A stretch of DNA of 64,000 nucleotides from a virus. Its lineage: Duplodnaviria; Caudoviricetes. A program made the position numbers and the translations under genes. Positions within the stretch are counted from its first letter, which is position 1, and each line of letters begins with the position of its first letter. The notes beneath the pieces are model-generated. The model was not told the origin of the DNA, did not search any database, and saw only the letters and a program-made list of their open reading frames with translations. The stretch lies in IMG/VR virus record IMGVR_UViG_3300028048_002144; one strand, given 5' to 3'. Positions 14,471 to 40,916 of this stretch are shown in pieces.

Positions 14471-14524
14471 AATGTTCTCCTTATGAAAATGTTGTCTATT
14501 ATGTTAAAGTGTACTCAAATGTGC

Positions 14525-15766
14525 TTACACTGCATTGTCAAACCAATATATCTTTGAATATTTCCAAAGTAGTTTGCATTTTTTGGCATTAACCTTTTTA
14601 CAATGTTTTGTAGGACTCTGAAAATTCAAAGCATTTAACTTTGGATAAAGTGCGGTTACGTAACCTCTATGAGTTTCACCATTTTTGAAGGTATATTCAA
14701 CTAAATCTCTATGTTTTATACTTAAAACGTTATCCGTTTTAGCTTTACTTTGCCTACGTATTGGTTTTATTATCCATTCTATAATATCTGTAGTATCTGG
14801 TTTTAGATCTGTTATACAGATAGCATCGTTCGAATGTGATTTTTCTATATCCCAGTCAATGCGTTTATTTGCAGTATCACCACCATTTGTTAAATGTAAA
14901 ATACCAAGTTCTGATAACTGTTTTCTCAACCAATTTTTACCTATCATTACATGACTTGCATAATTAAGATTTTTATTATCAGAAGAATTAAGCATATTAA
15001 AATAATGTTTCATATACTGTTCTTCTTTGCCTTCTGTCTTTTGGTGGCAATCACTACATAAAGTTATGAGATTATCTAATGTATTAGAACCGTTAAGTCT
15101 TCGTGGTTTTATATGATGTACTTCCAATACAGTATTAGATTTACCACATTCCATACATTTGTGGCCATCACGGAAAATAACTGCTTTACGAATATTCTCA
15201 TCTAAACGATTTGATTTTTGATATTGCCAATTATAAGGTTTATAACCATCTGTTAAGGCTCTTATATCAATAGCAACATCTTCGAGCCAATAATTGGTAA
15301 TATTAATCCATTTATTCAGATGGTATATTACTCGCATTGTAGCTTGTCGTTTTTGTAAAATACTTGGTGCTATTCTCCCGTTTCGTTTAGATGATTTACG
15401 ATTATAAAATCGTGCCTTACGATATCTTTTTTGATATCTGTGATATCTACGATAGCTTCTGCGAACATCCATAAGATGCTTTACGTCATTACGCTGTTCG
15501 ATTGTACCTTTAAATAAAACCTTATTCTTAGTTTGACATTTCTGCACTAGAGCTATACCTGCATGTAATCCACCATCATCAATACCAAGGCGAATTTCAT
15601 CTTTACAGATTTCATCATTAGGAATAACTCTATTGAGTTGTATTACCATAGGATATTTAGATACGAGTTTCGCTTTGCCTTTTCGTATCATATACCACGC
15701 TTTAGTTTCTTTCGTTGGGCTTAACTGCTTACCGTCAGCGTCCAACACAAAACTATAATTTGTCAT
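14525..15766 (-). CDS. iscB: IscB RNA-guided endonuclease (copy 1)
   Basis: PLMP-like N-terminus ([12 protein letters not shown]), RuvC-I GIDDG, Arg-rich bridge, RuvC-II WLED, HNH ([20 protein letters not shown]), RuvC-III SHSND. Confidence 0.9.
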
Positions 15767-15774
15767 TTCTGACC

Positions 15775-16082
15775 ACCTTCCTTTCGGAGAATTGTTCCTC
15801 GTGCCAATGACAGAAAGAAGTGTTTATGTTTCGCTGTTTGCACCACAGGACATTAGTGGTGTTTCTTGCTTGGCAATCACAGAGCAACGGACTGAGAATA
15901 CATCCGAGGGTGTGTCTTTAACTTATCTCTCTATCGTAGTTCATCATGCAGAGTAGCTTTCGCTATCAGCACTCACTTAGGCTCGAAACCTACTGTTAAA
16001 TTCATGGCTCAAAAAGCTTAATTGTGTCCACTTTTGAGTATGTTTAAACATATATTGCTATGTTTTTAATTACTTAACAGTT
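15775..16082 (-). ncRNA. omegaRNA (HEARO-like) of IscB copy 1; ends approximate
   Basis: About 300-nt structured non-coding leader directly upstream of iscB, with CTGTTAA/TTAACAG pairing and CTACG, GGATG..CAGTCC..GCTCTG and CATTGGC segments typical of omegaRNAs. Confidence 0.7.
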
Positions 16083-16087
16083 AGTCC

Positions 16088-16918
16088 TTATTCGTGAATA
16101 TAAACTGGCGTTCCTACATCTACATTTGCATATAGATTTTTCATTACAGAATATGGTGTATTAACACAGCCATGTGATCCGTTCCTATGATAGATATTGC
16201 CACCAAATGAACCTCGCCAGGTTGCGTCATGTATGCCTATTCCGCTTCCAGTTAATCGCATCCAATAATTTACCCAGCTACTATATCCAGGGCCTTTGAG
16301 AGTCTTCCCAGGCACTTTTGAAGTAATATAGTAAGCTCCTACAGGTGTTTTAGTTGTATCTTTACCCGTTACAACAGATGTTTCTATTACAGGGTTATAA
16401 ATATTGTTTTTATTTTTCTCGTATAGATACATTTTCTGGTTAGAAATAGATACTTCTATATATTTGTTAGCTGGATAATCGCTATATCTTATTGGTTCTC
16501 TATTAGCTAAAGATTCATGCTTTAAAAAACATTCTTTTAAATATTTAATCTCAGCCTTCTTATCTATATCTAATAGGGTGCCTTCGGTTATTAGCGAATC
16601 CTCACCAGACATTGTTTTAAAGGGTATAGGTTTCTTATCAAAATCTATTTTTTCTACTTGTTCATCTATAAATGATAAATCTGTATTTTTATAATCCTTT
16701 TCATTAAGAATCTCTGATTCCACTTTCGCCCCATTAGAATACTCACACACCCATTTGAAAAGTTTAGGTTTTTCTTCTGATTTATTCTTCTTGTCTAAAT
16801 TTTCAATATTATTAGTGTTTACGTATGGGCTAATATTTTTACTATGGAATCTATATACTTGTATAAGAATACCTAGCAATAACAAACCGATAATTATATA
16901 TTTGATATAATTTTTCAT
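16088..16918 (-). CDS. L,D-transpeptidase (YkuD) family protein
   Basis: N-terminal TM; IEVSISNQKM, VVTG..TPVG, IGIHDA, GSHGCVN. Confidence 0.9.
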   Translation of the reverse strand: MKNYIKYIIIGLLLLGILIQVYRFHSKNISPYVNTNNIENLDKKNKSEEKPKLFKWVCEYSNGAKVESEILNEKDYKNTDLSFIDEQVEKIDFDKKPIPFKTMSGEDSLITEGTLLDIDKKAEIKYLKECFLKHESLANREPIRYSDYPANKYIEVSISNQKMYLYEKNKNNIYNPVIETSVVTGKDTTKTPVGAYYITSKVPGKTLKGPGYSSWVNYWMRLTGSGIGIHDATWRGSFGGNIYHRNGSHGCVNTPYSVMKNLYANVDVGTPVYIHE

Positions 16919-16968: not shown

Positions 16969-18219
16969 TTAAGCACACTCCATGCTTCTCCTTTCCGTAA
17001 GATAACTATTAGGTGTATACAGATATTTTAATTTTTTATAACTGATATTACCCTTATTTACTTTTTCTCTCTGTAGATTTCTTATATCAAAAAATCCGCT
17101 AGTTCTTCTTCCAAAAACGAAATACTCTTTGTCATCAAAGCTTACCTTATCGAATAGCCTGAATCCTTTTACCTTATATTCAGCTTGATTATTCTTGCGT
17201 ATACCGCCTTTATTAATCTTATACTTATGTATCTGCCTGTTATGGCAGCGTATTTTCTTTTGATAATATACATATCCCAGAGGCTTAGCTAATGGGTTTT
17301 TGCTGATACATCTGGCATCTATATAGTGCTCTTTAGGAAGGTTATTTTTTATACGAGTATTTTTAGTTATATATCCGTATGTAAGACTTACATTCGGATA
17401 AGTCTCTTTTAACTTGTTGTAAAACGCCCATCTCATTATTCCCATAAAAGTAGCATCTTTAAAACTCATGCCACGTTTGATAGTCTTTGGTAGTTTTACG
17501 GTTCCTTTGTGGTACCCTTTATGACAAGTCTCACATAGAGTAATAAGGTTATTCGGTGCATTTCCTCCAGTTTTTCGGCTTTCGATATGATGTACATTAA
17601 GAATTTTATCCTTTGACTTTCCTTTGCAACACTGGCAAATGTGACCATCTCTGGAAAGCACATATTCTCTAACATTCCAAAAATCTAACTGTTCACCTTG
17701 TTGATACTCTGTTCCACTTATGGTGGGATTCTTAATCTTTTGAATGTCAAAAGACGCAACTTCTACGATTATTCTTGTGACAGGAAGTATTTTGTATACA
17801 TCCTCAACAACTTTTAGGTGAGTATCTACTTTTGCCTGTACTGAAGGTGCAAGCCATCTGTCAGATCTTTTACGGTTATTAAATTTTGGTTTTCTGTATC
17901 TTGTTTTACGATTTCGTCTTGTTCTGCGAGCTTCTCTGCGTGTAGAAAGTAAATTCACAATATCATTTCGTAGTTCTACATCTGCAGCATATAGTTCTTT
18001 ATCAGTAGTAGTTGCTGACACGCCTATATGTTTACTGCCTGCATCAATACCTAAAGATACATCCTGAGTATAAGTCGTACTCTTATACATTAATTGTATT
18101 GTAAACGGACATCTTTTAATTACTTTTGCTTTACCTTTGTTAAGTAATCTGCGTACTTTGCCACATCTATTTGTTGGCATTAATGGTTGTCCGTTTATAT
18201 CTAATACATATACCAACAT
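16969..18219 (-). CDS. iscB: IscB RNA-guided endonuclease (copy 2)
   Basis: VYVLDINGQPLMPT, GIDAGSK, RREARRTRR bridge, IVEVASFD, HNH (CQCC..NVHHI..NLITLCETCH), EHYIDA. Confidence 0.93.
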   Translation of the reverse strand: MLVYVLDINGQPLMPTNRCGKVRRLLNKGKAKVIKRCPFTIQLMYKSTTYTQDVSLGIDAGSKHIGVSATTTDKELYAADVELRNDIVNLLSTRREARRTRRNRKTRYRKPKFNNRKRSDRWLAPSVQAKVDTHLKVVEDVYKILPVTRIIVEVASFDIQKIKNPTISGTEYQQGEQLDFWNVREYVLSRDGHICQCCKGKSKDKILNVHHIESRKTGGNAPNNLITLCETCHKGYHKGTVKLPKTIKRGMSFKDATFMGIMRWAFYNKLKETYPNVSLTYGYITKNTRIKNNLPKEHYIDARCISKNPLAKPLGYVYYQKKIRCHNRQIHKYKINKGGIRKNNQAEYKVKGFRLFDKVSFDDKEYFVFGRRTSGFFDIRNLQREKVNKGNISYKKLKYLYTPNSYLTERRSMECA

Positions 18220-18229
18220 AGATTTGGCT

Positions 18230-18544
18230 CCTTTCTGTAAATTACTGATATGTTTATTGCTATAAGCCGGTACATATCAACCGTAATGCAGCCTTCGCCA
18301 ATGTTATTATGAGGTTTTTGTAAGCAACACCGTTCCTACCCATTAGAACTGTTTAATCACTTATCTTAGAGCTGCAGACTAGGCTGAACATCCACAGGTA
18401 ACTATACATAACAATGAAACTACTAATGTTTCATTGTATATTCTCACATAACGTAGTCAGTTAAGACTTAGGCTAGTCAACAAAGGCTTTTACAAGCCTC
18501 CACTTCAACAATTATAAAATAATCGCAAGTGGTGAGTTATTGAC
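18230..18544 (-). ncRNA. omegaRNA scaffold of IscB copy 2
   Basis: GTCAA..TTGAC terminal pairing, GACTAGCCTAAG, CTACGTT, GGATG..CTAGTCTG..GCTCT, AACATTGGCGAAGG. Confidence 0.8.
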
Positions 18545-33558: not shown

Positions 33559-33596
33559 AAAAAAGCCTACCAACAAATAAATGTTAGTAGGCTTTT
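33559..33596 (-). terminator. Terminator after nrdD
   Basis: AAAAGCCTAC..GTAGGCTTTT hairpin. Confidence 0.7.
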
Positions 33597-33602
33597 GCAG
33601 CA

Positions 33603-36600
33603 TTATTTCTCCGAATTACTCTTCAAAGAAGTGTTTTCGATTTTAGGAATAGCTACATGCACATATCTATCCTGGATTTCCTGGGTTCTACCCTGGTTCC
33701 AGAACTGAGATCCAATATCCTTTATACCCTCGGTTTCCCGATACTTAGGGGAATTTATACCCTCGGCTTCCCGATATTTAGGGGAGTAGACTATACAATC
33801 AAAATATTATTCTATATTTAAAATTAAGTGGAAATTATAGTCGTTGAGCGTCATCCCTACGCAATGCTTTAAGGGAGTTTCGTTGCGTTTGATTACCCAA
33901 TCCTTAATGATTTTACCTTACCGATTCCGTTACTAATCGCCACATATATATTTCTATATATGCTTGGTTATTAAGGCTCTAAGGGAGTTCCCGCAGTTTA
34001 TTCCATTTAACGTGGCCCTATTGAGGCTAAGCCACATGTACGTCTTGATACATGCATTTTACTCTGATCACGATTCTTGCAATTTGGACATTCCCAAACT
34101 AATTTGTTATGCTCATCCTTAACAATACGAATTTCACCGTCATATCCACATACTTCACACAAATCTGACTTTGTGTTTAATTCTGCGTACAGAATTGTAT
34201 TATAGATATGCTGCATGATTGCAATTACTGCATCAATATTATTCTGCATGTTAGGGATTTCAACGTAACTAATTGCTCCACCAGGTGAAAGTTCCTGGAA
34301 TTCAGCTTCTTTTGTTAACTTGCTAAAGGCATCAATCTTTTCCATTACGTTTACATGATATGAATTAGTAATATAATTCTTGTCTGTAACGTGTGGGATA
34401 ATGCCAAATCTTCTTTGAAGATTCTTAGCAAATTTGTATGTAGTAGATTCGATAGGCGTTCCATAAAGAGAATAACTAATATTTTCTTCTTCTCTCCACT
34501 TTGCACACTTATCATTCATATACTGCATAACTTTAAGAGCGAATTCTTTTCCCTTTTCACTTGTATGTGATTCACCGATCATTCGATAGCACATTTCAGA
34601 TACTCCAGCATATCCTAGTGAAATAGTTGAATAATTTCCGTAAAGGAGTTTATCAATTGTTTCACCTGGCTTTAGTCTAGCTAAAGCTCCATCCTGCCAA
34701 AGAATAGGTGCTACATCTGATGGCGTTCCTAGCAATCTTTCATGTCTTATACGCAATGCCCTATGGCAAAGTTCTAATCGTTCATCGAAAATCTTCCAGA
34801 ATTCTTCCATATCTCCATTAGATGAACATGCTACATCAACTAGGTTGATGGTTACGACACCCTGATTAACGCATAAAGCAGACTATCTCTTCTATATAAT
34901 TATTTATATAGCGATGCGCTTGGAATCAGGCGATAAACTCTGATCCTACTGAGCTACACTCATCACTCATAGTCGTTACACCGTTTTCTTAATTAAAGAA
35001 ACTTGGCACGGTATTGGCAGCTACCCTTATTAAGGGCCTTAGCGTCTCTTACGAAGCGTATTCGCACAGATCGTAACTTCTGTCTTATTTAACTTCTACC
35101 GTTAGCAATATAAGATTAATTTTATATCACACCGTTTATCAAACGTTCACATCGTTTAAGGACGACCTAATCAGGCAACGTTTGTCAATCGTCCATAATA
35201 TTTATGTTCACCTTCTTTGAAATTCAATGCATTTGCTTTATTGTCAGCATTGCATAGATTTTCTCTATTCTTTTCATTATCTGCTGTAAGGAAGGATCTG
35301 CAACCCCAAATATGTTCACATGATTCGCAACATCATGCAGTTCCCTTATGAACTTCTCTATGTCGCCATAGACGAGATATGAATTTCACATATCCAGGAC
35401 AAAATATAAAAATTTGTCGTTCAGACTATATCACGCTCTGGATTTCTCCAGTAGTCCTATCTTTTCGCTTTATCATTTGCTTATAAAGCTACTCTACTCA
35501 CTTCGTGTCATTTCTGACCTTATTTTCATGCTATTTTTCAAGCCTTGTAGCTTTCGATAGTCGTTAGACTTTTACAATTTTATATGAAATTGATTTAGTA
35601 CGGTAAGTTATCTTATATAAGACTTACTCCGTTTAGATAGGTTTGCTAATATTGTCACCAATATTAGGCACAGGTTTTGTTTATGCACGGATAAACATCT
35701 CCATCCTTTAATTCCTTCATCTTCTTTTCTGAAATATAATCCGGAACCATTCTTTTTGCAGTACATTTGGCTGCTAGTTTTGTGAGATAAAAATACGGGC
35801 TGTCTTCTGTAATGTTGTTTTCAGAAAGCACATAGATTAATTTAGGGAAAGCTGGAGTAACATAATTGCCACTTCTATCTTTTACACCTAAAATTCTCTG
35901 CTTTAACATTGTTTCAATAATTAAAGCCAAATCCTTTTTCGCATTCTCATCTTTAACTTCATTTAGATACATGAATACAGTTACAAATGGTGCTTGCGTT
36001 TTCTTAGTATGATTGATGTATCACGCTAAGGCTGACTATTTCTTGCTTGATGATTAACATCAAACCAATGCGTTTCCGCAGTCGCTTGCACAGCTGCGTA
36101 CGGTATAAAACCTAGTCGATACAATTACAGGTTAATGAATCGTTAAGTTATGGGCTTCTGGATTATTTTTTATCCAGCGAGCCAATGTAGCACGGGAAAC
36201 TTTCAGATATTTTGCCAGTGATGTCATTGTCGTGAAGCGTTTTCCGTCACATAGAATATAGTCAGTGAATAATTTTCTTTGTCTTGAATGCGTTGGCTTG
36301 CCATCTTTAAGCGTCCGATAATAATGAACGTTATTTTCAGATGGTGTTACCCATTCAAGGTTATCGACCATATTATTATGCTTGTTACCGTCTTTATGAT
36401 TAACAACGGTAAGCGATGCATCATGTGGAAGGAATGTCTGGGCAACGATGCGATGGAGTAATAATGTCCTTGATTTGCGTGTGGCATCGTTTTTCGTTAG
36501 AGATATACGTACGTATCCATCCTTACTATCCCATGCTTTCTTGAGGTAATAGGCTTTGTATTGTCTCGAATATGATCGTATTCGCCCTTTATTAGATACT

Positions 36601-39356
36601 TCATAGTCTTCATATCCAAGTATCGGTTTCCATATTTCCCCATCAATAGTGTCATAGTTATATTGGCGATGACTATTATTCTTCTTGTCATTTATAGCTT
36701 GTCTAGCACGAGCGTGTCTGCGGTTTGCCTTCTCTTGGTTGGCTTTATATAGCGCAGGATCACGTTGTATATATATCTGATCGATTTGTGCCTTTGTCGT
36801 TCCTATTTTGTCAGCAATCTGTTGTGATGTTGCATCATTGTTCAGCATAGTGATTATCGTTTGTCTGTGCTTATTTACAAATTTTTGCTGAGATGGCGAC
36901 AAGTGCGTTTGATGTTTAGGTTTCGGTGTCTGCCATTCTCTTAGCTTTCGTGATATCACATATCTTTGAATGTGAAACAGACGTGATAAATAGGCGATTG
37001 ATTTTCCTTCCTTTGTATAAAGATATTCTATTTGTTCTTTGAGAAGCTGGCACTTCTCATATTGATTCATTGAATTAAGCATTTGTGTGTGCTCCTTTCC
37101 TGTAGTCACGAGATTATCTTTGATATTGAGATTTCTCTCATATCAGGATTTTCCTCGTTAGCCTCGTCATATAAGCGAGACCCCGCCTCTGGCGGTTAAC
37201 ATTGTTTTAGAACGGCCTAGCGATAACTGAACCGTTCGTTGATTGTAGTGTGATAAGCTGGTACTGAATAGTCTGACATCCAGCTTCAATTTCTTTCTTT
37301 ACTTCCATTTCGATAAGTTCATTAAACTTCTCTTTAGGAATAGAAATATTTAACTTCGTCAATTCATTTGTCATTCTCTTTTTGATTTTTTCTCTTGATC
37401 TTTCTACGAAAGGTGCAAGATGAGAAAGAGTGAATGTTTGTCCCAATTTAGGAATTTAATATGTAAGTTTTTGTGCTACACATAAATTAGACTATTTCTT
37501 GTTGACATTTGTATGTGCCAACCAATGCGTTTCGATTATAGCTATCTATAATCTACAATTAGTCGTTACAATTATTTATTATTAATTTGATATCGTGTTT
37601 TTCTGGGTGATCTAAGTATCTTCGAGTTTGTGTTTCTGACTTGTTTAAGAATCGTGCAAATGCTGCTACGGTTTTGAATTTATATTTATCTTTATATAAT
37701 ATGTAATCGAATTTATATCTTTTTTTATTAACTATGTTTCTTTTATTACTTCTGTAAGCATGAAGATTATTATCAGCTTGTGTTGACCACTCTAAATTTG
37801 TTGCTTTATTATTCAATACATTTCCGTCTTTATGATTTATAGTATTCTTCTCTTCACTATATCCTTTAACAAAAGCATGTCCTACAAGTCTTGATACCTG
37901 TAAGTTTTTATTTTTTACCCTTACATATAATCTATTGTTATTTTTATTAGGATAAGGTTTTAATAAAGCGTATTTTTTATATCTTTTTTTATAGCTTTTA
38001 ACTCTTCCATAATTAGAAATATAATAGTTTGGATATCCTAATATAGGTTTCCATATCTCATCATCAAAATTTTCAAAATCATAATCTAACGATGAGTTTT
38101 CTAATTTATTAAATAAATTATCTTTTGTTCTAATTTTTCTTCTATTGATATAATCTTCATAAGTTTTGTTTAATACATCATCATTTTTTATGTAAGTATA
38201 TACTAATGATTTTATAGATATTTTTAACTCTTTTGATATTTTATTAAGTGATATATCTCTATCTAATCGAGATTTAATATAATCTCTGTTCCTATTAATA
38301 AACTTCCTAGTAGATGGAGTTATATGTCTTTTTGAATTAGATGGTTTTATTTTCCATACATTCTTTAATTTATCACTTACAGTCTTTCGATTTATTTTTA
38401 GTAATCTACTAATATATGATATCGAACGACCTTCTTTGTTATATAAAAACACGATTGTTTCTTTTAATAATTCTGCTTTTTCCGAACTTCTCATGAGCAT
38501 TCCACTCCTTTAATAATAAATAATCACGAGATCAGCTTTTCCAACCTACCTCGTTAGCCTTGCTAATTAAAGCAAAACCCTATTGTGATAGTTAACATTG
38601 TTTTTATACGGCAGACTTTAAACCGTACTGTGACGAAGCTACCTGAGCTACAATCTGTGATGTGACTGTACATGCTGTTAAGAAACTATGTGGCTTATCA
38701 ATTTTCGTTCCAGAAATTGTTGTTCCGTTCTGGAGCATATCTTCCAGATTGACCAAACAACAATTACTCATATGATTGGCGAAGTAATCGCTGTCGTGGA
38801 ACTGAATGATTCCTTCTTTATGTGCTTCTTTGATCTCTTCTGGTAAGATGTACTTATCTACAAAGTGTCTTGACCATTCACCAGCCATATAGTCTCTCTG
38901 AACAGAAAGTATTGTAGGATTCTTATTTGAATTCTCCTGCTTTACTTCTTCGTTCTTAATTGCTACATGACCATCTTTTTCAACTGTCACATCAATAATG
39001 TTCTGGATCTTTCTATCTATATCTGACATGTTTCGCTTTTCATTGTGCTTATATCTATACACAATGTACTTCTCAGCTAATTCTGCATGCTGCAAATAGA
39101 TAATTTCTTTGATTACAAGATCCTGAATTTCTTCTACAGAATATGCTCGATTTGCATTTATTACTGTTCTAGTAATATTCTCTGTAATTTCATTAATCTC
39201 TTTTGAAGTTAGTTTTTCGATTCCTCGAACTTCATTGTTTGCTTTGCCTATCGCAATCTTAATTTTATTTGGTTCATACTCAGCCTGAGTACCGTCTCTT
39301 TTGATTACATAGACATTGCTTGTTTGATTTGCTTCTTTGATATTCTCATTAAACAT
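33603..39356 (-). CDS. nrdD: Anaerobic (class III) ribonucleotide reductase with 6 exons: 39356-38622, 37443-37231, 35996-35683, 35306-35188, 34869-34030, 33718-33603 (2337 nt, 778 aa)
   Basis: ATP cone (VIKRDG). Splicing restores SQYG|GQ, TNG|QAPF, YPCM|GCRSF, YGRF|NQGVV and RTCGY|IG; exon lengths sum in frame. Confidence 0.92.
33719..34029 (-). ncRNA. Group I intron 5 of nrdD (311 nt, no ORF)
   Basis: P1 AUGUGGCU/GGCCACGU ending in U.G; CAACGACU..AUAGUC core; terminal G. Confidence 0.85.
34870..35187 (-). ncRNA. Group I intron 4 of nrdD (318 nt, no ORF)
   Basis: P1 GGACGAU/GUCGUCC; GUAACGACU..AUAGUC; terminal G. Confidence 0.85.
35307..35682 (-). ncRNA. Group I intron 3 of nrdD (376 nt, no ORF)
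   Basis: P1 GCAU/GUGC; UAACGACU..AUAGUC; terminal G. Confidence 0.85.
35997..37230 (-). mobile_element. Group I intron 2 of nrdD with homing endonuclease (1234 nt)
   Basis: P1 GAACGGU/GCCGUUC; AUCGACU..AUAGUC; terminal G. Confidence 0.88.
36132..37082 (-). CDS. Intron-encoded NUMOD4-HNH homing endonuclease
   Basis: EIWKPILGYEDYEVSNKGRIRS; HRIVA..VNHKDGNKHNN..NLEW..EN; start set behind SD AAAGGAG. Confidence 0.88.
   Translation of the reverse strand: MLNSMNQYEKCQLLKEQIEYLYTKEGKSIAYLSRLFHIQRYVISRKLREWQTPKPKHQTHLSPSQQKFVNKHRQTIITMLNNDATSQQIADKIGTTKAQIDQIYIQRDPALYKANQEKANRRHARARQAINDKKNNSHRQYNYDTIDGEIWKPILGYEDYEVSNKGRIRSYSRQYKAYYLKKAWDSKDGYVRISLTKNDATRKSRTLLLHRIVAQTFLPHDASLTVVNHKDGNKHNNMVDNLEWVTPSENNVHYYRTLKDGKPTHSRQRKLFTDYILCDGKRFTTMTSLAKYLKVSRATLARWIKNNPEAHNLTIH
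37444..38621 (-). mobile_element. Group I intron 1 of nrdD with homing endonuclease (1178 nt)
   Basis: P1 UACGGU/GCCGUA; GUAACGACU..AUAGUC; terminal G. Confidence 0.88.
37559..38500 (-). CDS. Intron-encoded NUMOD4-HNH homing endonuclease
   Basis: EIWKPILGYPNYYISNYGRVKS; INHKDGNVLNN..NLEW..DN. Confidence 0.88.
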   Translation of the reverse strand: MLMRSSEKAELLKETIVFLYNKEGRSISYISRLLKINRKTVSDKLKNVWKIKPSNSKRHITPSTRKFINRNRDYIKSRLDRDISLNKISKELKISIKSLVYTYIKNDDVLNKTYEDYINRRKIRTKDNLFNKLENSSLDYDFENFDDEIWKPILGYPNYYISNYGRVKSYKKRYKKYALLKPYPNKNNNRLYVRVKNKNLQVSRLVGHAFVKGYSEEKNTINHKDGNVLNNKATNLEWSTQADNNLHAYRSNKRNIVNKKRYKFDYILYKDKYKFKTVAAFARFLNKSETQTRRYLDHPEKHDIKLIINNCND

Positions 39357-39471
39357 TTGTATACCTCCTTCGCTCATAAAAATATCTACGTATAATATGA
39401 AAGATTAATATTAAAAAAATACCTAGATAAAAATATCTAGGTATTTGTATGATATTTACTTCTCTTATGGC

Positions 39472-40137
39472 TTATGGAAGGTCTACAGTATATTCCCATT
39501 TTTCAATTATAAATTCATCTAGTATATCAGCAGCAATATCATTAAGGATTTCATCTACTGGATTATTCTTAAGATATTCCCTGATCTGCTTATTTGTGGT
39601 AAGGCCTTTATCTTTTAATACTTTCTCAAATCCTTGTTTGTCTTTCTTATACAGAACTGAAAATAGTTTTCTTAAATCCTTTTCTGTATTATCGTTAGTA
39701 TTTTCCAAGAAAGAATAAATATCCTTATCATCACCCCAGTATCCTATTACGTACTTATCTTTAAACTCAGAATCATTTGTAACGTAAATTCCCATATTAG
39801 GTTCTTCAGATGTACAAGTAATACTCATGGTATATCCAAGTTTGTCAACTAGAGCCTGCCACATCTTGTTCATCGGTCCCCAGGCAGTATGTGTATTAAT
39901 CATAAGTTCATTGTCGTTCGCAAGTTCTACTTCATCAATACAACCTCTACAAGGATATTTCCCACTCAAAGGATCTGATTTTAGTCCCTTTTCTACTATC
40001 AATCCTAGCCAATCATTATTCCAGCTGTTCTCGATAGTTGTTCCTTCTTTCTGCCAGCTAATAATGAGATTGTATAGTTTCTTCGCCTCATTATTCATTG
40101 AGTTAAAATTCAGATAATTATAGCACCAATTTGGCAT
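39472..40137 (-). CDS. MPNWC-family (DUF1281/YubB ferredoxin-like) protein, paralog A
   Basis: MPNWCYN start, TAWGP, EEPNMG. Confidence 0.7.
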   Translation of the reverse strand: MPNWCYNYLNFNSMNNEAKKLYNLIISWQKEGTTIENSWNNDWLGLIVEKGLKSDPLSGKYPCRGCIDEVELANDNELMINTHTAWGPMNKMWQALVDKLGYTMSITCTSEEPNMGIYVTNDSEFKDKYVIGYWGDDKDIYSFLENTNDNTEKDLRKLFSVLYKKDKQGFEKVLKDKGLTTNKQIREYLKNNPVDEILNDIAADILDEFIIEKWEYTVDLP

Positions 40138-40238: not shown

Positions 40239-40916
40239 TTAAGCAATAAGTTCTTTAAATTCCCACTTGCGAATTTTTATATTACTAACAGGAACAATTT
40301 CGCTCATAATTTCAAATAATCGTTCAATTTTTCCTTTTCTAAAGTATGTCTTAATCTGCGTAAGGGTAGAAGCTTTAGAATAATACTTTCTCATATATTT
40401 TTTCGCTTGTTTAAATCTTTCAGGATAGTTCTCTTTTGCTTTTATATACGTATCAAACAAAAATGTTCTCACATACTTTTCTTCCGCTTTATAGTCGCTA
40501 TCATATTCGGAGTCAAAACTATCAATGATATAGGCATTCTTTAATTCTGGTTCGTTTGTTTGATAGATTCCTATATTCTGTTCTATAGAAGTGTATATGA
40601 TATTTGCTCCTGGGATATATTTATCTACAAGCATTAACCACATTTCATGCATAGGCTTCCAAGCTGTATTTACTGAAACAAATAATTTATTATCACAATC
40701 TAGTTCAAGATTGCTTATCCAACCTATGCATTCAATTTCTTCTGATAAAGGGTCCATTTCTAATCCTTTTTCTACAACTAGCCCTAACCAGTTATTATCC
40801 CATGAATGTTTTATAATAGTGCCTTCTTCCTGCCATTTCTCAAGTAAGTTAAATAACTTTTTAGCACCCTTATCTTCTGTTTTAATTGTGTATCGTGTAT
40901 AACACCAATTTGGCAT
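40239..40916 (-). CDS. MPNWC-family protein, paralog B
   Basis: MPNWCYT, WLGLVVEKGL, TAWKP; clearly similar to its neighbour. Confidence 0.7.
   Translation of the reverse strand: MPNWCYTRYTIKTEDKGAKKLFNLLEKWQEEGTIIKHSWDNNWLGLVVEKGLEMDPLSEEIECIGWISNLELDCDNKLFVSVNTAWKPMHEMWLMLVDKYIPGANIIYTSIEQNIGIYQTNEPELKNAYIIDSFDSEYDSDYKAEEKYVRTFLFDTYIKAKENYPERFKQAKKYMRKYYSKASTLTQIKTYFRKGKIERLFEIMSEIVPVSNIKIRKWEFKELIA

What the first reader, a model, noticed from the sequence alone, without database searches (positions are those of the whole stretch)
33603..39356. nrdD interrupted by five group I introns, two at catalytic motifs
Seen: all five junctions have an exon-terminal U in a U.G-closed P1, a terminal G and ACGACU/AUAGUC-type core elements. 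Splicing gives an uninterrupted 778-aa NrdD. Intron 3 splits the Met codon of CMGCR (the active-site Cys loop). Intron 5 splits the Tyr codon right after the glycyl-radical Gly (RTCGY). About 59% of the locus is intron. Known: RNR genes are intron hotspots and splicing needs a guanosine cofactor; five introns in one bacterial or phage gene is high to my knowledge. Inference: dNTP supply depends on five splicing events, a possible regulatory checkpoint.
Basis: partly seen in the sequence, partly recalled or inferred. Interest (0 to 1): 0.75.

Follow-up and report, generated by a model that had tools for sequence, protein, structure and literature searches.

The report
Phage nrdD split by five introns
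On a large phage-like element from the cow gut, the gene for the oxygen-sensitive enzyme that makes DNA building blocks is cut into six pieces by five self-splicing (group I) introns, which is an extreme example of a well-known habit of phage genes and not a new mechanism.

Summary
On the minus strand, 39356-33603, six exons join into one 2337-nt frame encoding a 778-aa NrdD. The ATP-cone, NRDD and glycyl-radical domains are collinear and every catalytic residue of T4 NrdD is kept. The five insertions (1178, 1234, 376, 318 and 311 nt) make up 59.4% of the locus.

Each insertion follows an exon-terminal U paired to G in a P1 helix and ends in G. Each has a P10 helix and complementary P3, P4, P6, P7 and P8 helices, and the same R/S core as the T4 td, nrdB and nrdD introns. 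Introns 1 and 2 carry I-HmuI-like HNH endonuclease genes in the P6 loop.

Independent support:
- DNA contigs of related strains lack intron 3 or intron 4 exactly at my boundaries.
- Homologous introns sit at the intron 1 site in Lactococcus phage P1048 and at the intron 5 site in Enterocloster phage CB457P1. Their guide sequences covary with synonymous exon changes.

Splicing itself is not shown, and Rfam's general model scores below threshold.

The regulatory-checkpoint idea has no support: most relatives have no intron, and introns 3 and 4 are polymorphic. Multi-intron phage genes, nrdD included, are published, and this scan noted a five-intron nrdD before on other DNA. This is a new member of a known kind.

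The parts
39417..39446 (-). Intrinsic terminator of the upstream gene
39387..39401 (-). Copy of the element-wide promoter-like motif, just upstream of the nrdD ribosome-binding site. There is no other copy inside the locus.
   Evidence: 31 copies in the window against 4 expected by chance
38622..39356 (-). nrdD exon 1 (735 nt; ATP-cone and start of the NRDD domain)
37444..38621 (-). Intron 1 (1178 nt, 25% GC), group I, phase 0 after G245. It is the counterpart of the intron at the same site in Lactococcus phage P1048 nrdD.
37559..38500 (-). Homing-endonuclease ORF of intron 1 (313 aa, NUMOD4 + HNH_3), lying in the P6 loop. Its last codons overlap P6' and P7.
   Evidence: 45% identical to the P1048 intron ORF
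37231..37443 (-). nrdD exon 2 (213 nt)
35997..37230 (-). Intron 2 (1234 nt), group I, phase 0 after G316, paralogue of intron 1
36132..37082 (-). Homing-endonuclease ORF of intron 2 (316 aa from the ATG behind a Shine-Dalgarno; 325 aa if the upstream GTG at 37109 is used), NUMOD4 + HNH_3
   Evidence: (I-HmuI, PDB 1U3E, E 3e-13)
35683..35996 (-). nrdD exon 3 (314 nt)
35307..35682 (-). Intron 3 (376 nt, no ORF), T4 td-like group IA intron inside the Met421 codon. A related strain lacks it precisely.
35188..35306 (-). nrdD exon 4 (119 nt; holds the catalytic Cys423)
34870..35187 (-). Intron 4 (318 nt, no ORF), group IA, inside the Phe461 codon next to Asn462. A related strain lacks it precisely.
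34030..34869 (-). nrdD exon 5 (840 nt; core barrel, zinc-ribbon cysteines, radical Gly740)
33719..34029 (-). Intron 5 (311 nt, no ORF), group I with an extended P5 arm, inside the Tyr741 codon. Homologues occupy the same site in Enterocloster phage CB457P1 and in IMG/VR contigs L013, L014 and L023.
33721..33785 (-). Tandem duplication (2 x 33 nt, 93% alike) of the P9 to 3'-splice-site region of intron 5. Only the distal copy ends in G.
33603..33718 (-). nrdD exon 6 (116 nt including the stop)
33561..33596 (-). Intrinsic terminator directly after the nrdD stop codon

Best explanation
nrdD of this large phage or phage-plasmid is one transcription unit: promoter motif, ribosome-binding site, 5.75 kb of gene, terminator. 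Its pre-mRNA carries five group I ribozymes. Each intron folds its internal guide sequence onto the last 4-7 exon bases (P1, with a U-G wobble at the cleavage site) and onto the first bases of the next exon (P10). An external guanosine bound at P7 attacks the 5' splice site, the terminal G of the intron replaces it, and the exons are ligated. Five such events restore a 778-aa class III ribonucleotide reductase. Shown here: the anatomy, the reading frame, conservation and covariation of the helices, and mobility at the DNA level. Inferred: the chemistry itself. The introns are selfish homing elements of three lineages. Introns 1 and 2 are paralogues that carry I-HmuI-like HNH endonucleases, and intron 4 shares their core build. 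Intron 3 is T4 td-like. Intron 5 belongs to a family widespread in Firmicute phages. They collect at the most conserved codons because homing endonucleases and guide sequences need invariant targets.
For: The frame and domains are restored exactly and all T4 NrdD catalytic residues are kept. All P1, P3, P4, P6, P7 and P8 helices, and four of the five P10 helices, are fully complementary, with exon-terminal U and intron-terminal G at all five junctions. The R/S core motif and its spacing match the three experimentally proven T4 introns, and five of its six occurrences in the window fall in the introns. Intron 5: bases 32-151 are 77% identical to an AR9 intron that Rfam RF00028 scores at 69 bits, and intron 5 itself aligns end to end with RF00028 at 18 bits, E 0.018. 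A 73%-identical intron sits at the same codon in CB457P1, whose NrdD is only 50% identical. The exon base at -2 is C, G or A in the three homologues, and the guide base opposite it is G, C or U. P10, P3, P5, P5a, P5c and P7 also show compensatory changes. Intron 1: an orthologue with a 45%-identical endonuclease lies at the same site in Lactococcus phage P1048, with compensated P3, P6, P8 and peripheral hairpins. Intron 2: an ORF-less homologue occupies the same site in L051, with compensated P3 and P4. DNA contigs from other studies skip exactly 318 nt (intron 4) and 376 nt (intron 3, with a synonymous Cys codon change at the joint). Contigs from three other runs cross all exon-intron borders, so this is not an assembly artefact.
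Against: There is no direct evidence of splicing. The one metatranscriptome run gave only short contigs. Two stop exactly at the exon 6 border, one lies wholly inside intron 3, and no clean spliced joint was listed. Rfam RF00028 finds nothing at its gathering score, and in a 7-kb search nothing even at E up to 10. As a control, the same model misses the T4 nrdB intron and scores T4 td below threshold. Minimum-free-energy z-scores are unremarkable for introns 4 and 5 (-0.4 and +0.1; intron 3 gives -3.0). P1 of intron 3 has only 4 pairs, and P10 of intron 2 has one mismatch. Introns 1, 2 and 4 have two hairpins between P3 and the junction to P4, which I cannot match to a described subgroup. No NrdG activase was seen in the 64-kb window.
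Confidence: 0.9

Rival explanations
1. Regulatory checkpoint: the five ribozymes are retained because they gate NrdD synthesis, and so dNTP supply, on guanosine nucleotide level or on translation state.
For: Group I splicing needs a guanosine cofactor (established knowledge). [quoted passage not shown] I did not read that paper. Five serial events would multiply any such dependence.
Against: About 45 of 80 related nrdD genes have no insertion and none has more than three. Introns 3 and 4 are missing from strains about 95% identical. In relatives the same or neighbouring codons carry unrelated introns or inteins. Two introns still carry intact endonuclease genes. All of this is the signature of selfish turnover, not of a selected regulator.
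Confidence: 0.06
2. Decaying pseudogene: nrdD has been broken by insertions that no longer splice, and the element relies on the host's reductase.
For: Splicing is not shown. No nrdG was found in the window. Rfam scores are below threshold. Introns 3-5 have lost any endonuclease gene.
Against: There are no frameshifts or stops in 2337 nt of exon, and all catalytic residues are intact. Guide sequences still match both flanking exons at every junction and covary with exon wobble positions in homologues. The gene has its own promoter motif, a strong ribosome-binding site and a terminator.
Confidence: 0.04
3. The insertions are another kind of element: inteins, group II introns, IStrons, or an assembly chimera.
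For: Intron 4 is a multiple of three (318 nt). Relatives do carry inteins one codon away from the intron 3 site.
Against: All five insertions contain in-frame stops within a few codons of the junction. They have no reverse transcriptase or transposase, and they are small (311-376 nt without an ORF). They have group I helices and the R/S core. Contigs from runs of other studies cover the junctions.
Confidence: 0.01

Closest known systems
Phage T4 nrdD (sunY) group I intron with I-TevII
   Same: A self-splicing group IA intron in a phage nrdD, with the same R/S core. The R-P7.1-P7.2 stretch of intron 4 is 76% identical to it, with a compensated P7.1.
   Different: T4 has a single intron, 11 codons upstream of our intron 2 site (after T4 residue 179 = our 305). 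It carries a GIY-YIG endonuclease, not an HNH one. It lacks the two extra hairpins after P3.
Phage T4 td intron (subgroup IA2)
   Same: Intron 3 shares the P3-J3/4-P4 stretch, the R and S elements, a P2 hairpin and a P7.2 hairpin before P3'.
   Different: Intron 3 has no ORF, sits in a different gene, and has a larger region between P7 and P3'.
Intron in nrdD of Lactococcus phage P1048 (MN552145, not annotated as an intron)
   Same: Same insertion site as intron 1 and the same core build, including the two hairpins after P3. The HNH endonuclease lies in the P6 loop and is 45% identical.
   Different: That gene has only this one intron in the part I examined. The helices differ in sequence by compensatory changes.
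Intron in nrdD of Enterocloster phage CB457P1 (OP172753, not annotated)
   Same: Same codon position as intron 5, 73% identical over 77% of the intron, with the same P5 extension.
   Different: It is the only intron in that gene. It has a longer P8 and no tandem duplication at the 3' end.
Jug (jumbo gut) phages, nrdD interrupted by group I introns (PMC12880540)
   Same: Gut phages whose nrdD is fragmented in 95 of 104 genomes, by group I introns and by insertions that often encode endonucleases or intein domains. Splicing is supported by metatranscriptome reads.
   Different: The published example has four fragments, against six here. The host phylum is different (Bacteroides).
Bacillus phage AR9 g189 (virion RNA polymerase beta)
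   Same: A phage coding sequence annotated as six joined pieces, that is five introns. One of its introns is homologous to the 5' half of intron 5.
   Different: A different gene. Rfam RF00028 recognises the AR9 introns well.
I-HmuI of Bacillus phage SPO1 (PDB 1U3E)
   Same: The HNH homing-endonuclease core of the intron 2 ORF matches it at E 3e-13. Both intron ORFs have NUMOD4 + HNH_3.
   Different: Our ORFs are about 140 residues longer at the N terminus and have helix-turn-helix-like segments. Their activity is untested.

Membership tests
Group I intron | The 5' splice site follows a U that forms a U-G wobble in P1 with an internal guide sequence | tested here: met
   All five junctions; P1 has 4-7 pairs
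Group I intron | The intron ends in G (omega G) | tested here: met
   All five
Group I intron | P10: the guide sequence just 5' of its P1 strand pairs with the start of the 3' exon | tested here: met
   4-8 pairs; perfect in four introns, 4 of 5 pairs in intron 2. It covaries with the exon in intron 5 homologues.
Group I intron | Core of P3-P8 and P4-P6 domains with the P7 pseudoknot, in the canonical 5'-to-3' order | tested here: met
   All helices are complementary in all five introns. Compensatory changes are seen against P1048, L051, CB457P1 and L013. Caveat: introns 1, 2 and 4 have two extra hairpins between P3 and P4.
Group I intron | Conserved R and S sequence elements forming P7 (the guanosine-binding helix) | tested here: met
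   Same motif, with comparable spacing (56-141 nt against 71-81 nt in T4), as in T4 td, nrdB and nrdD
Group I intron | Score at or above the gathering threshold of Rfam RF00028 | tested here: not met
   No hit in two searches. Intron 5 searched alone gives 18.3 bits against the threshold of 50. Control: the model misses T4 nrdB and scores T4 td at 40 bits, so this is a weak test for phage IA introns.
Group I intron | Guanosine-dependent self-splicing with exon ligation | not testable with these tools
   RNA contigs from one metatranscriptome were inconclusive
Group I intron (mobile) | Precise presence or absence of the intron between otherwise similar alleles | tested here: met
   Contigs lacking intron 3 and contigs lacking intron 4 in DNA runs X3 and X2. 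Most IMG/VR relatives are uninterrupted.
Subgroup IA2 (T4-type) | P7.1/P7.2 hairpins between P7 and P3' | tested here: inconclusive
   Intron 4 has both. I could place only P7.2 in intron 3, where a candidate P7.1 overlaps it by 3 nt. Introns 1 and 2 have one hairpin there. Intron 5 has none and instead has a branched P5 extension. The five introns therefore do not belong to one subgroup.
HNH homing endonuclease (I-HmuI-like) | HNH_3 catalytic domain with NUMOD4, encoded inside the intron | tested here: met
   Both ORFs score above the Pfam cut-offs. PDB 1U3E matches. PHROG 59 and 959 match. Cleavage activity was not tested.
Class III ribonucleotide reductase NrdD | NRDD and glycyl-radical domains, the radical Gly, the thiyl Cys loop, and four zinc-ribbon Cys | tested here: met
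   Pfam domains collinear across the exons. T4 NrdD structure matched at E 9e-46. C79, C290, N311, C543, C546, C561, C564 and G580 of T4 are all conserved.

The most novel reading that the evidence does not exclude
The five serial ribozymes act as a splicing-level gate that ties production of the anaerobic reductase to the guanosine-nucleotide or translation state of the infected cell. A more modest alternative: introns 1, 2 and 4, together with the P1048 intron, define an undescribed structural variant of group IA introns with a two-hairpin insertion between P3 and P4. In that reading intron 2 arose when the intron 1 lineage moved to a second site whose exon ends in the same four bases.
Probability: 0.07. 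Interest if true: 0.6.

Novelty: new member of a known kind. Interest (0 to 1): 0.35.

Why it matters
This is one of the most heavily invaded phage genes on record: five introns, all at the most conserved codons of an essential-type enzyme, drawn from three intron lineages. Natural alleles lacking intron 3 or intron 4 exist in the same habitat. Relatives carry inteins at or next to two catalytic cysteines, and unrelated introns at some of the same sites. Together these make a compact natural system for studying homing-site choice, intron gain and loss, and the retargeting of an intron and its endonuclease to a second site. There is also a practical point. Annotation pipelines miss such introns: the nrdD genes of two cultured phages (CB457P1 and P1048) are deposited as truncated or split genes, and Rfam's general model does not flag these introns.

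Tried and rejected
- Rfam on the whole window and on the 7-kb locus gave no group I hit. Nine related loci also gave none. The T4 and AR9 controls show that the model is insensitive for this intron type.
- Minimum-free-energy z-scores were informative only for intron 3.
- An exact-pattern scan of IMG/VR for the conserved 5' stretch of introns 1 and 2 found nothing.
- A word-based search of IMG/VR for relatives of the intron 2 endonuclease found nothing.
- blastn of the intron 2 ribozyme 5' part against 50,697 phage records found nothing.
- No whole genome is held for this window, so nrdG could not be sought outside it.
- RNA run X8 covered only parts of the locus with short contigs. The 33718-to-34131 joint in it most likely comes from a relative without intron 5, and I do not count it as evidence of splicing. 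Parts of the locus without RNA cover are not evidence of anything.
- The sixth R...S motif, at 42296-42228, lies inside an uninterrupted ORF with no family match, and I take it as chance.
The same check was then done by coordinates.
- A literature search for a named hairpin between P3 and P4 found nothing relevant.
Full report
**What is there.** The locus lies on the minus strand. ORF listing and reading of the sequence show NrdD-like pieces separated by stop-rich stretches. I fixed the borders by homology and frame and checked them by script. The exons are 39356-38622, 37443-37231, 35996-35683, 35306-35188, 34869-34030 and 33718-33603. Joined, they give 2337 nt, 778 codons and a single terminal stop. 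The introns measure 1178, 1234, 376, 318 and 311 nt, which is 59.4% of the 5754-nt locus.

Pfam finds ATP-cone and NRDD in exon 1, NRDD in exons 2 and 3, and NRDD plus the glycine-radical domain in exon 5, with profile positions running on from exon to exon. Exon 5 matches the solved T4 NrdD structure at E 9e-46.

I rebuilt T4 NrdD from its genome record (605 aa, intron 1033 nt, as published) and aligned it to the joined product. All catalytic residues are kept: T4 C79, C290, N311, the four zinc-ribbon cysteines and G580.

The intron positions are:
- Intron 1: after G245.
- Intron 2: after G316.
- Intron 3: inside the M421 codon, two residues before the thiyl-radical Cys.
- Intron 4: inside the F461 codon, next to the active-site Asn.
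- Intron 5: inside the Y741 codon, right after the radical Gly.

Intron 4 is a third intron at a catalytic motif.

**Transcription unit and setting.** The upstream gene ends in a terminator at 39446-39417. A copy of the element-wide promoter-like motif follows at 39401-39387; the window holds 31 copies against about 4 expected by chance. Then come a strong ribosome-binding site and the ATG at 39356. A 15-pair terminator, 33596-33561, follows the stop codon, and there is no promoter motif inside the locus. All six exons are therefore made as one RNA.

Nearly all genes of the window are on the same strand and match phage replication proteins. The DNA comes from a bovine gut metagenome, and no whole genome is held. 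Earlier notes of this scan call the element a roughly 205-kb phage-plasmid of gut or rumen Firmicutes. I did not test that.

**Are the insertions group I introns?** By coordinates, every intron has the following:
- an exon-terminal U paired to G in a P1 helix of 4-7 pairs;
- a P10 helix of 4-8 pairs formed by the bases just 5' of the P1 guide strand (one mismatch in intron 2);
- a terminal G;
- fully complementary P3, P4, P6, P7 and P8 helices in the canonical order, with P3 and P7 forming the usual pseudoknot.

The R and S core elements are the same as in the three experimentally proven T4 introns (td, nrdB, nrdD), and their spacing (56-141 nt) spans the 71-81 nt seen in T4. The paired motif occurs six times on the minus strand of the whole window, five of them in the five introns, and never on the plus strand.

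The five introns are not of one type:
- Intron 3 is td-like: a P2 hairpin, the same P3-J3/4-P4 stretch, and a P7.2 hairpin before P3' (a candidate P7.1 overlaps it by 3 nt, so I could not place P7.1). Unconstrained folding recovers most of its helices, with z = -3.0.
- Intron 4 shares 76% identity with the T4 nrdD intron over R-P7.1-P7.2, with a compensated P7.1.
- Introns 1 and 2 are collinear paralogues. Each carries a NUMOD4 + HNH_3 ORF (36% identical to each other) looped out of P6. Each ORF has its own ribosome-binding site, and the ORF of intron 1 runs into P6' and P7 at its 3' end.
- Intron 5 has no P7.1 or P7.2 but has a branched P5 extension.

**Comparative support.**

*Intron 5.* Bases 32-151 are 77% identical to an intron of the AR9 virion RNA polymerase gene, which Rfam RF00028 scores at 69 bits. 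220 phage records, mostly Staphylococcus, Enterococcus, Listeria and Bacillus phages, share this stretch. The best match is nrdD of Enterocloster phage CB457P1. There a 73%-identical, unannotated intron sits in the same Tyr codon, although the proteins are only 50% identical. Across our intron, CB457P1 and IMG/VR contig L013, the third base of the Gly codon is C, G or A, and the guide base facing it is G, C or U. P10 follows the synonymous changes of the next two codons. P3, P5, P5a, P5c and P7 change by compensation.

*Intron 1.* Lactococcus phage P1048 has an unannotated intron at the same Gly|Gly site, with the same architecture and a 45%-identical endonuclease. P3, P6, P8 and the peripheral hairpins all differ by compensatory changes.

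*Intron 2.* Contig L051 has an ORF-less homologue at the same site, with compensated P3 and P4.

*Introns 3 and 4.* A DNA contig from run X2 joins 34868/9 to 35187/8, skipping 318 nt. A DNA contig from run X3 skips 35307-35685 and puts three letters in their place. This amounts to loss of the 376-nt intron plus a synonymous change in the Cys codon at the joint. These are intron-less alleles in strains about 95% identical, and they fix the borders of both introns to the base. Contigs of X2, X3 and X6 also cross the exon-intron borders of the other introns, which rules out an assembly chimera.

**What speaks against, and what is missing.**
- Rfam's general model gives no hit at its threshold, and in a 7-kb search none even at E up to 10. 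Searched alone, intron 5 aligns end to end at 18.3 bits, E 0.018.
- The controls weaken this negative result. The same model scores T4 nrdD at 105 bits, T4 td at only 40 bits (below its cut-off of 50), and T4 nrdB not at all. It also finds nothing in nine related loci or in the CB457P1 intron.
- Folding energies of introns 4 and 5 are no better than those of shuffled sequences. This is common for pseudoknotted ribozymes, but it gives no support.
- Direct evidence of splicing is lacking. The only RNA run held short contigs. Two end exactly at the first base of exon 6, one (310 nt, no mismatch) lies inside intron 3, and no clean exon-exon joint was listed.
- Introns 1, 2 and 4, and also the P1048 and L051 introns, have two hairpins between the 5' strand of P3 and the junction leading to P4. 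T4 nrdD, nrdB and td lack them, and I found no description of them. The hairpins are conserved by compensation, so they are real, but I leave their naming open.
- No ORF of 90 aa or more in the window has the radical-SAM cysteine motif of NrdG.

**Occupancy in relatives.** I fetched 80 IMG/VR loci encoding NrdD 63-76% identical in exon 5. About 45 are uninterrupted. The others are:
- L004: a different group I intron at the intron 1 site, with the same P1.
- L051: the intron 2 homologue, an intein just before the catalytic Cys, and an intron two codons from the intron 5 site.
- L013, L014 and L023: the intron 5 homologue.
- L039, L052 and L078: inteins just before the catalytic Cys. Pfam finds Intein_splicing with a PF14528 endonuclease domain in L052 and L051, and a GIY-YIG domain with a HINT domain in L039.
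- About 20 loci: an in-frame insertion just before the Cys that corresponds to T4 C79. It is probably an intein, but it has no Pfam match.

None has the intron 4 site occupied, and none has more than three insertions. T4's own intron lies 11 codons upstream of the intron 2 site.

**Mechanism and origin.** The best reading is ordinary group I self-splicing repeated five times on one pre-mRNA. The introns persist as selfish homing elements. The two HNH enzymes are related to I-HmuI, which by my own knowledge nicks one strand near the insertion site.

The exons at the intron 1 and intron 2 sites end in the same four bases, and the guide sequences share their complement. From this I infer that the intron 2 lineage arose when an intron 1-type element moved to a second site with a matching P1. 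This could have happened by reverse splicing or by relaxed endonuclease specificity. It is an inference, not a shown result.

Introns 3-5 have no ORF. They presumably spread with help in trans, or are relics.

**Comparison with what is known; verdict.**
- RNR genes are the classic intron and intein hot spot of phages, and nrdD was the most often split RNR gene in a survey of phage genomes (PMC3653736).
- Insertion at conserved sites is documented (PMC2814812; the paper was found in the search, not read).
- Jug phages have nrdD fragmented in 95 of 104 genomes, with up to four pieces in the published example and splicing seen in metatranscriptomes (PMC12880540).
- AR9 has a gene in six pieces.
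- This scan already recorded a gut-phage nrdD with five introns plus an intein on other DNA (unchecked by me).

The finding is real and cleanly documented, and it sits at the upper end of known intron load. It is a new member of a known kind. The checkpoint hypothesis is not excluded, but nothing here favours it.

Noticed in passing
window 33721-33785 (-): The last 65 nt of intron 5 are a tandem duplication (2 x 33 nt, 93% alike) of the P9 to 3'-splice-site region. Only the distal copy ends in G. Homologues in CB457P1 and L013 have a single copy. A related strain in run X2 seems to keep the duplication: its contig shows no gaps across this stretch.
   Followed up: partly
L001 4994-5286 (OP172753) and L085 1028-2253 (MN552145): Two cultured phages have unannotated group I introns in nrdD. 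In Enterocloster phage CB457P1 the coding sequence is cut short at the intron. In Lactococcus phage P1048 the 5' exon and the intron ORF are both labelled hypothetical proteins.
   Followed up: yes
window 38591-38560, 37195-37163, 35145-35108; L085 1080-1112: Introns 1, 2 and 4 and the P1048 intron share two hairpins between the 5' strand of P3 and the junction to P4. The T4 introns lack them. They are conserved by compensatory changes, and I could not match them to a named peripheral element.
   Followed up: partly
L013 8842-9116, L023 8836-9110, L051 6139-6482: These related introns leave only about 10-17 nt between P3' and the 3' strand of P7. They therefore seem to lack a P8 hairpin, yet they sit in otherwise intact nrdD genes.
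   Followed up: no
L039 7053-7895: The in-frame insertion just before the catalytic Cys of this related NrdD combines a HINT-type match with a GIY-YIG nuclease domain. It starts with Ala, not Cys. This would be an unusual pairing of intein and endonuclease.
   Followed up: no
window 1-64000: No ORF of 90 aa or more carries the radical-SAM cysteine motif expected of the NrdG activase, so the partner of this NrdD lies elsewhere on the element or is supplied by the host.
   Followed up: partly
window 18283-18544 (-), with ORFs 16969-18219 and 14525-15766: A HEARO RNA (Rfam, 114 bits) lies next to one of two long HNH-nuclease ORFs of the IscB type. Earlier notes of the scan already cover the copy at 14478-16091.
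   Followed up: no
window 39472-40137 and 40239-40916 (-): Directly upstream of nrdD are two paralogous ORFs (221 and 225 aa) with similar N termini. Each has its own promoter motif, and the one I scanned (39472-40137) has no Pfam match; neither has a PHROG match.
   Followed up: no
L051 11003-11080 (-): A RAGATH-18 RNA (Rfam, 60.5 bits) lies on a related viral contig.
   Followed up: no
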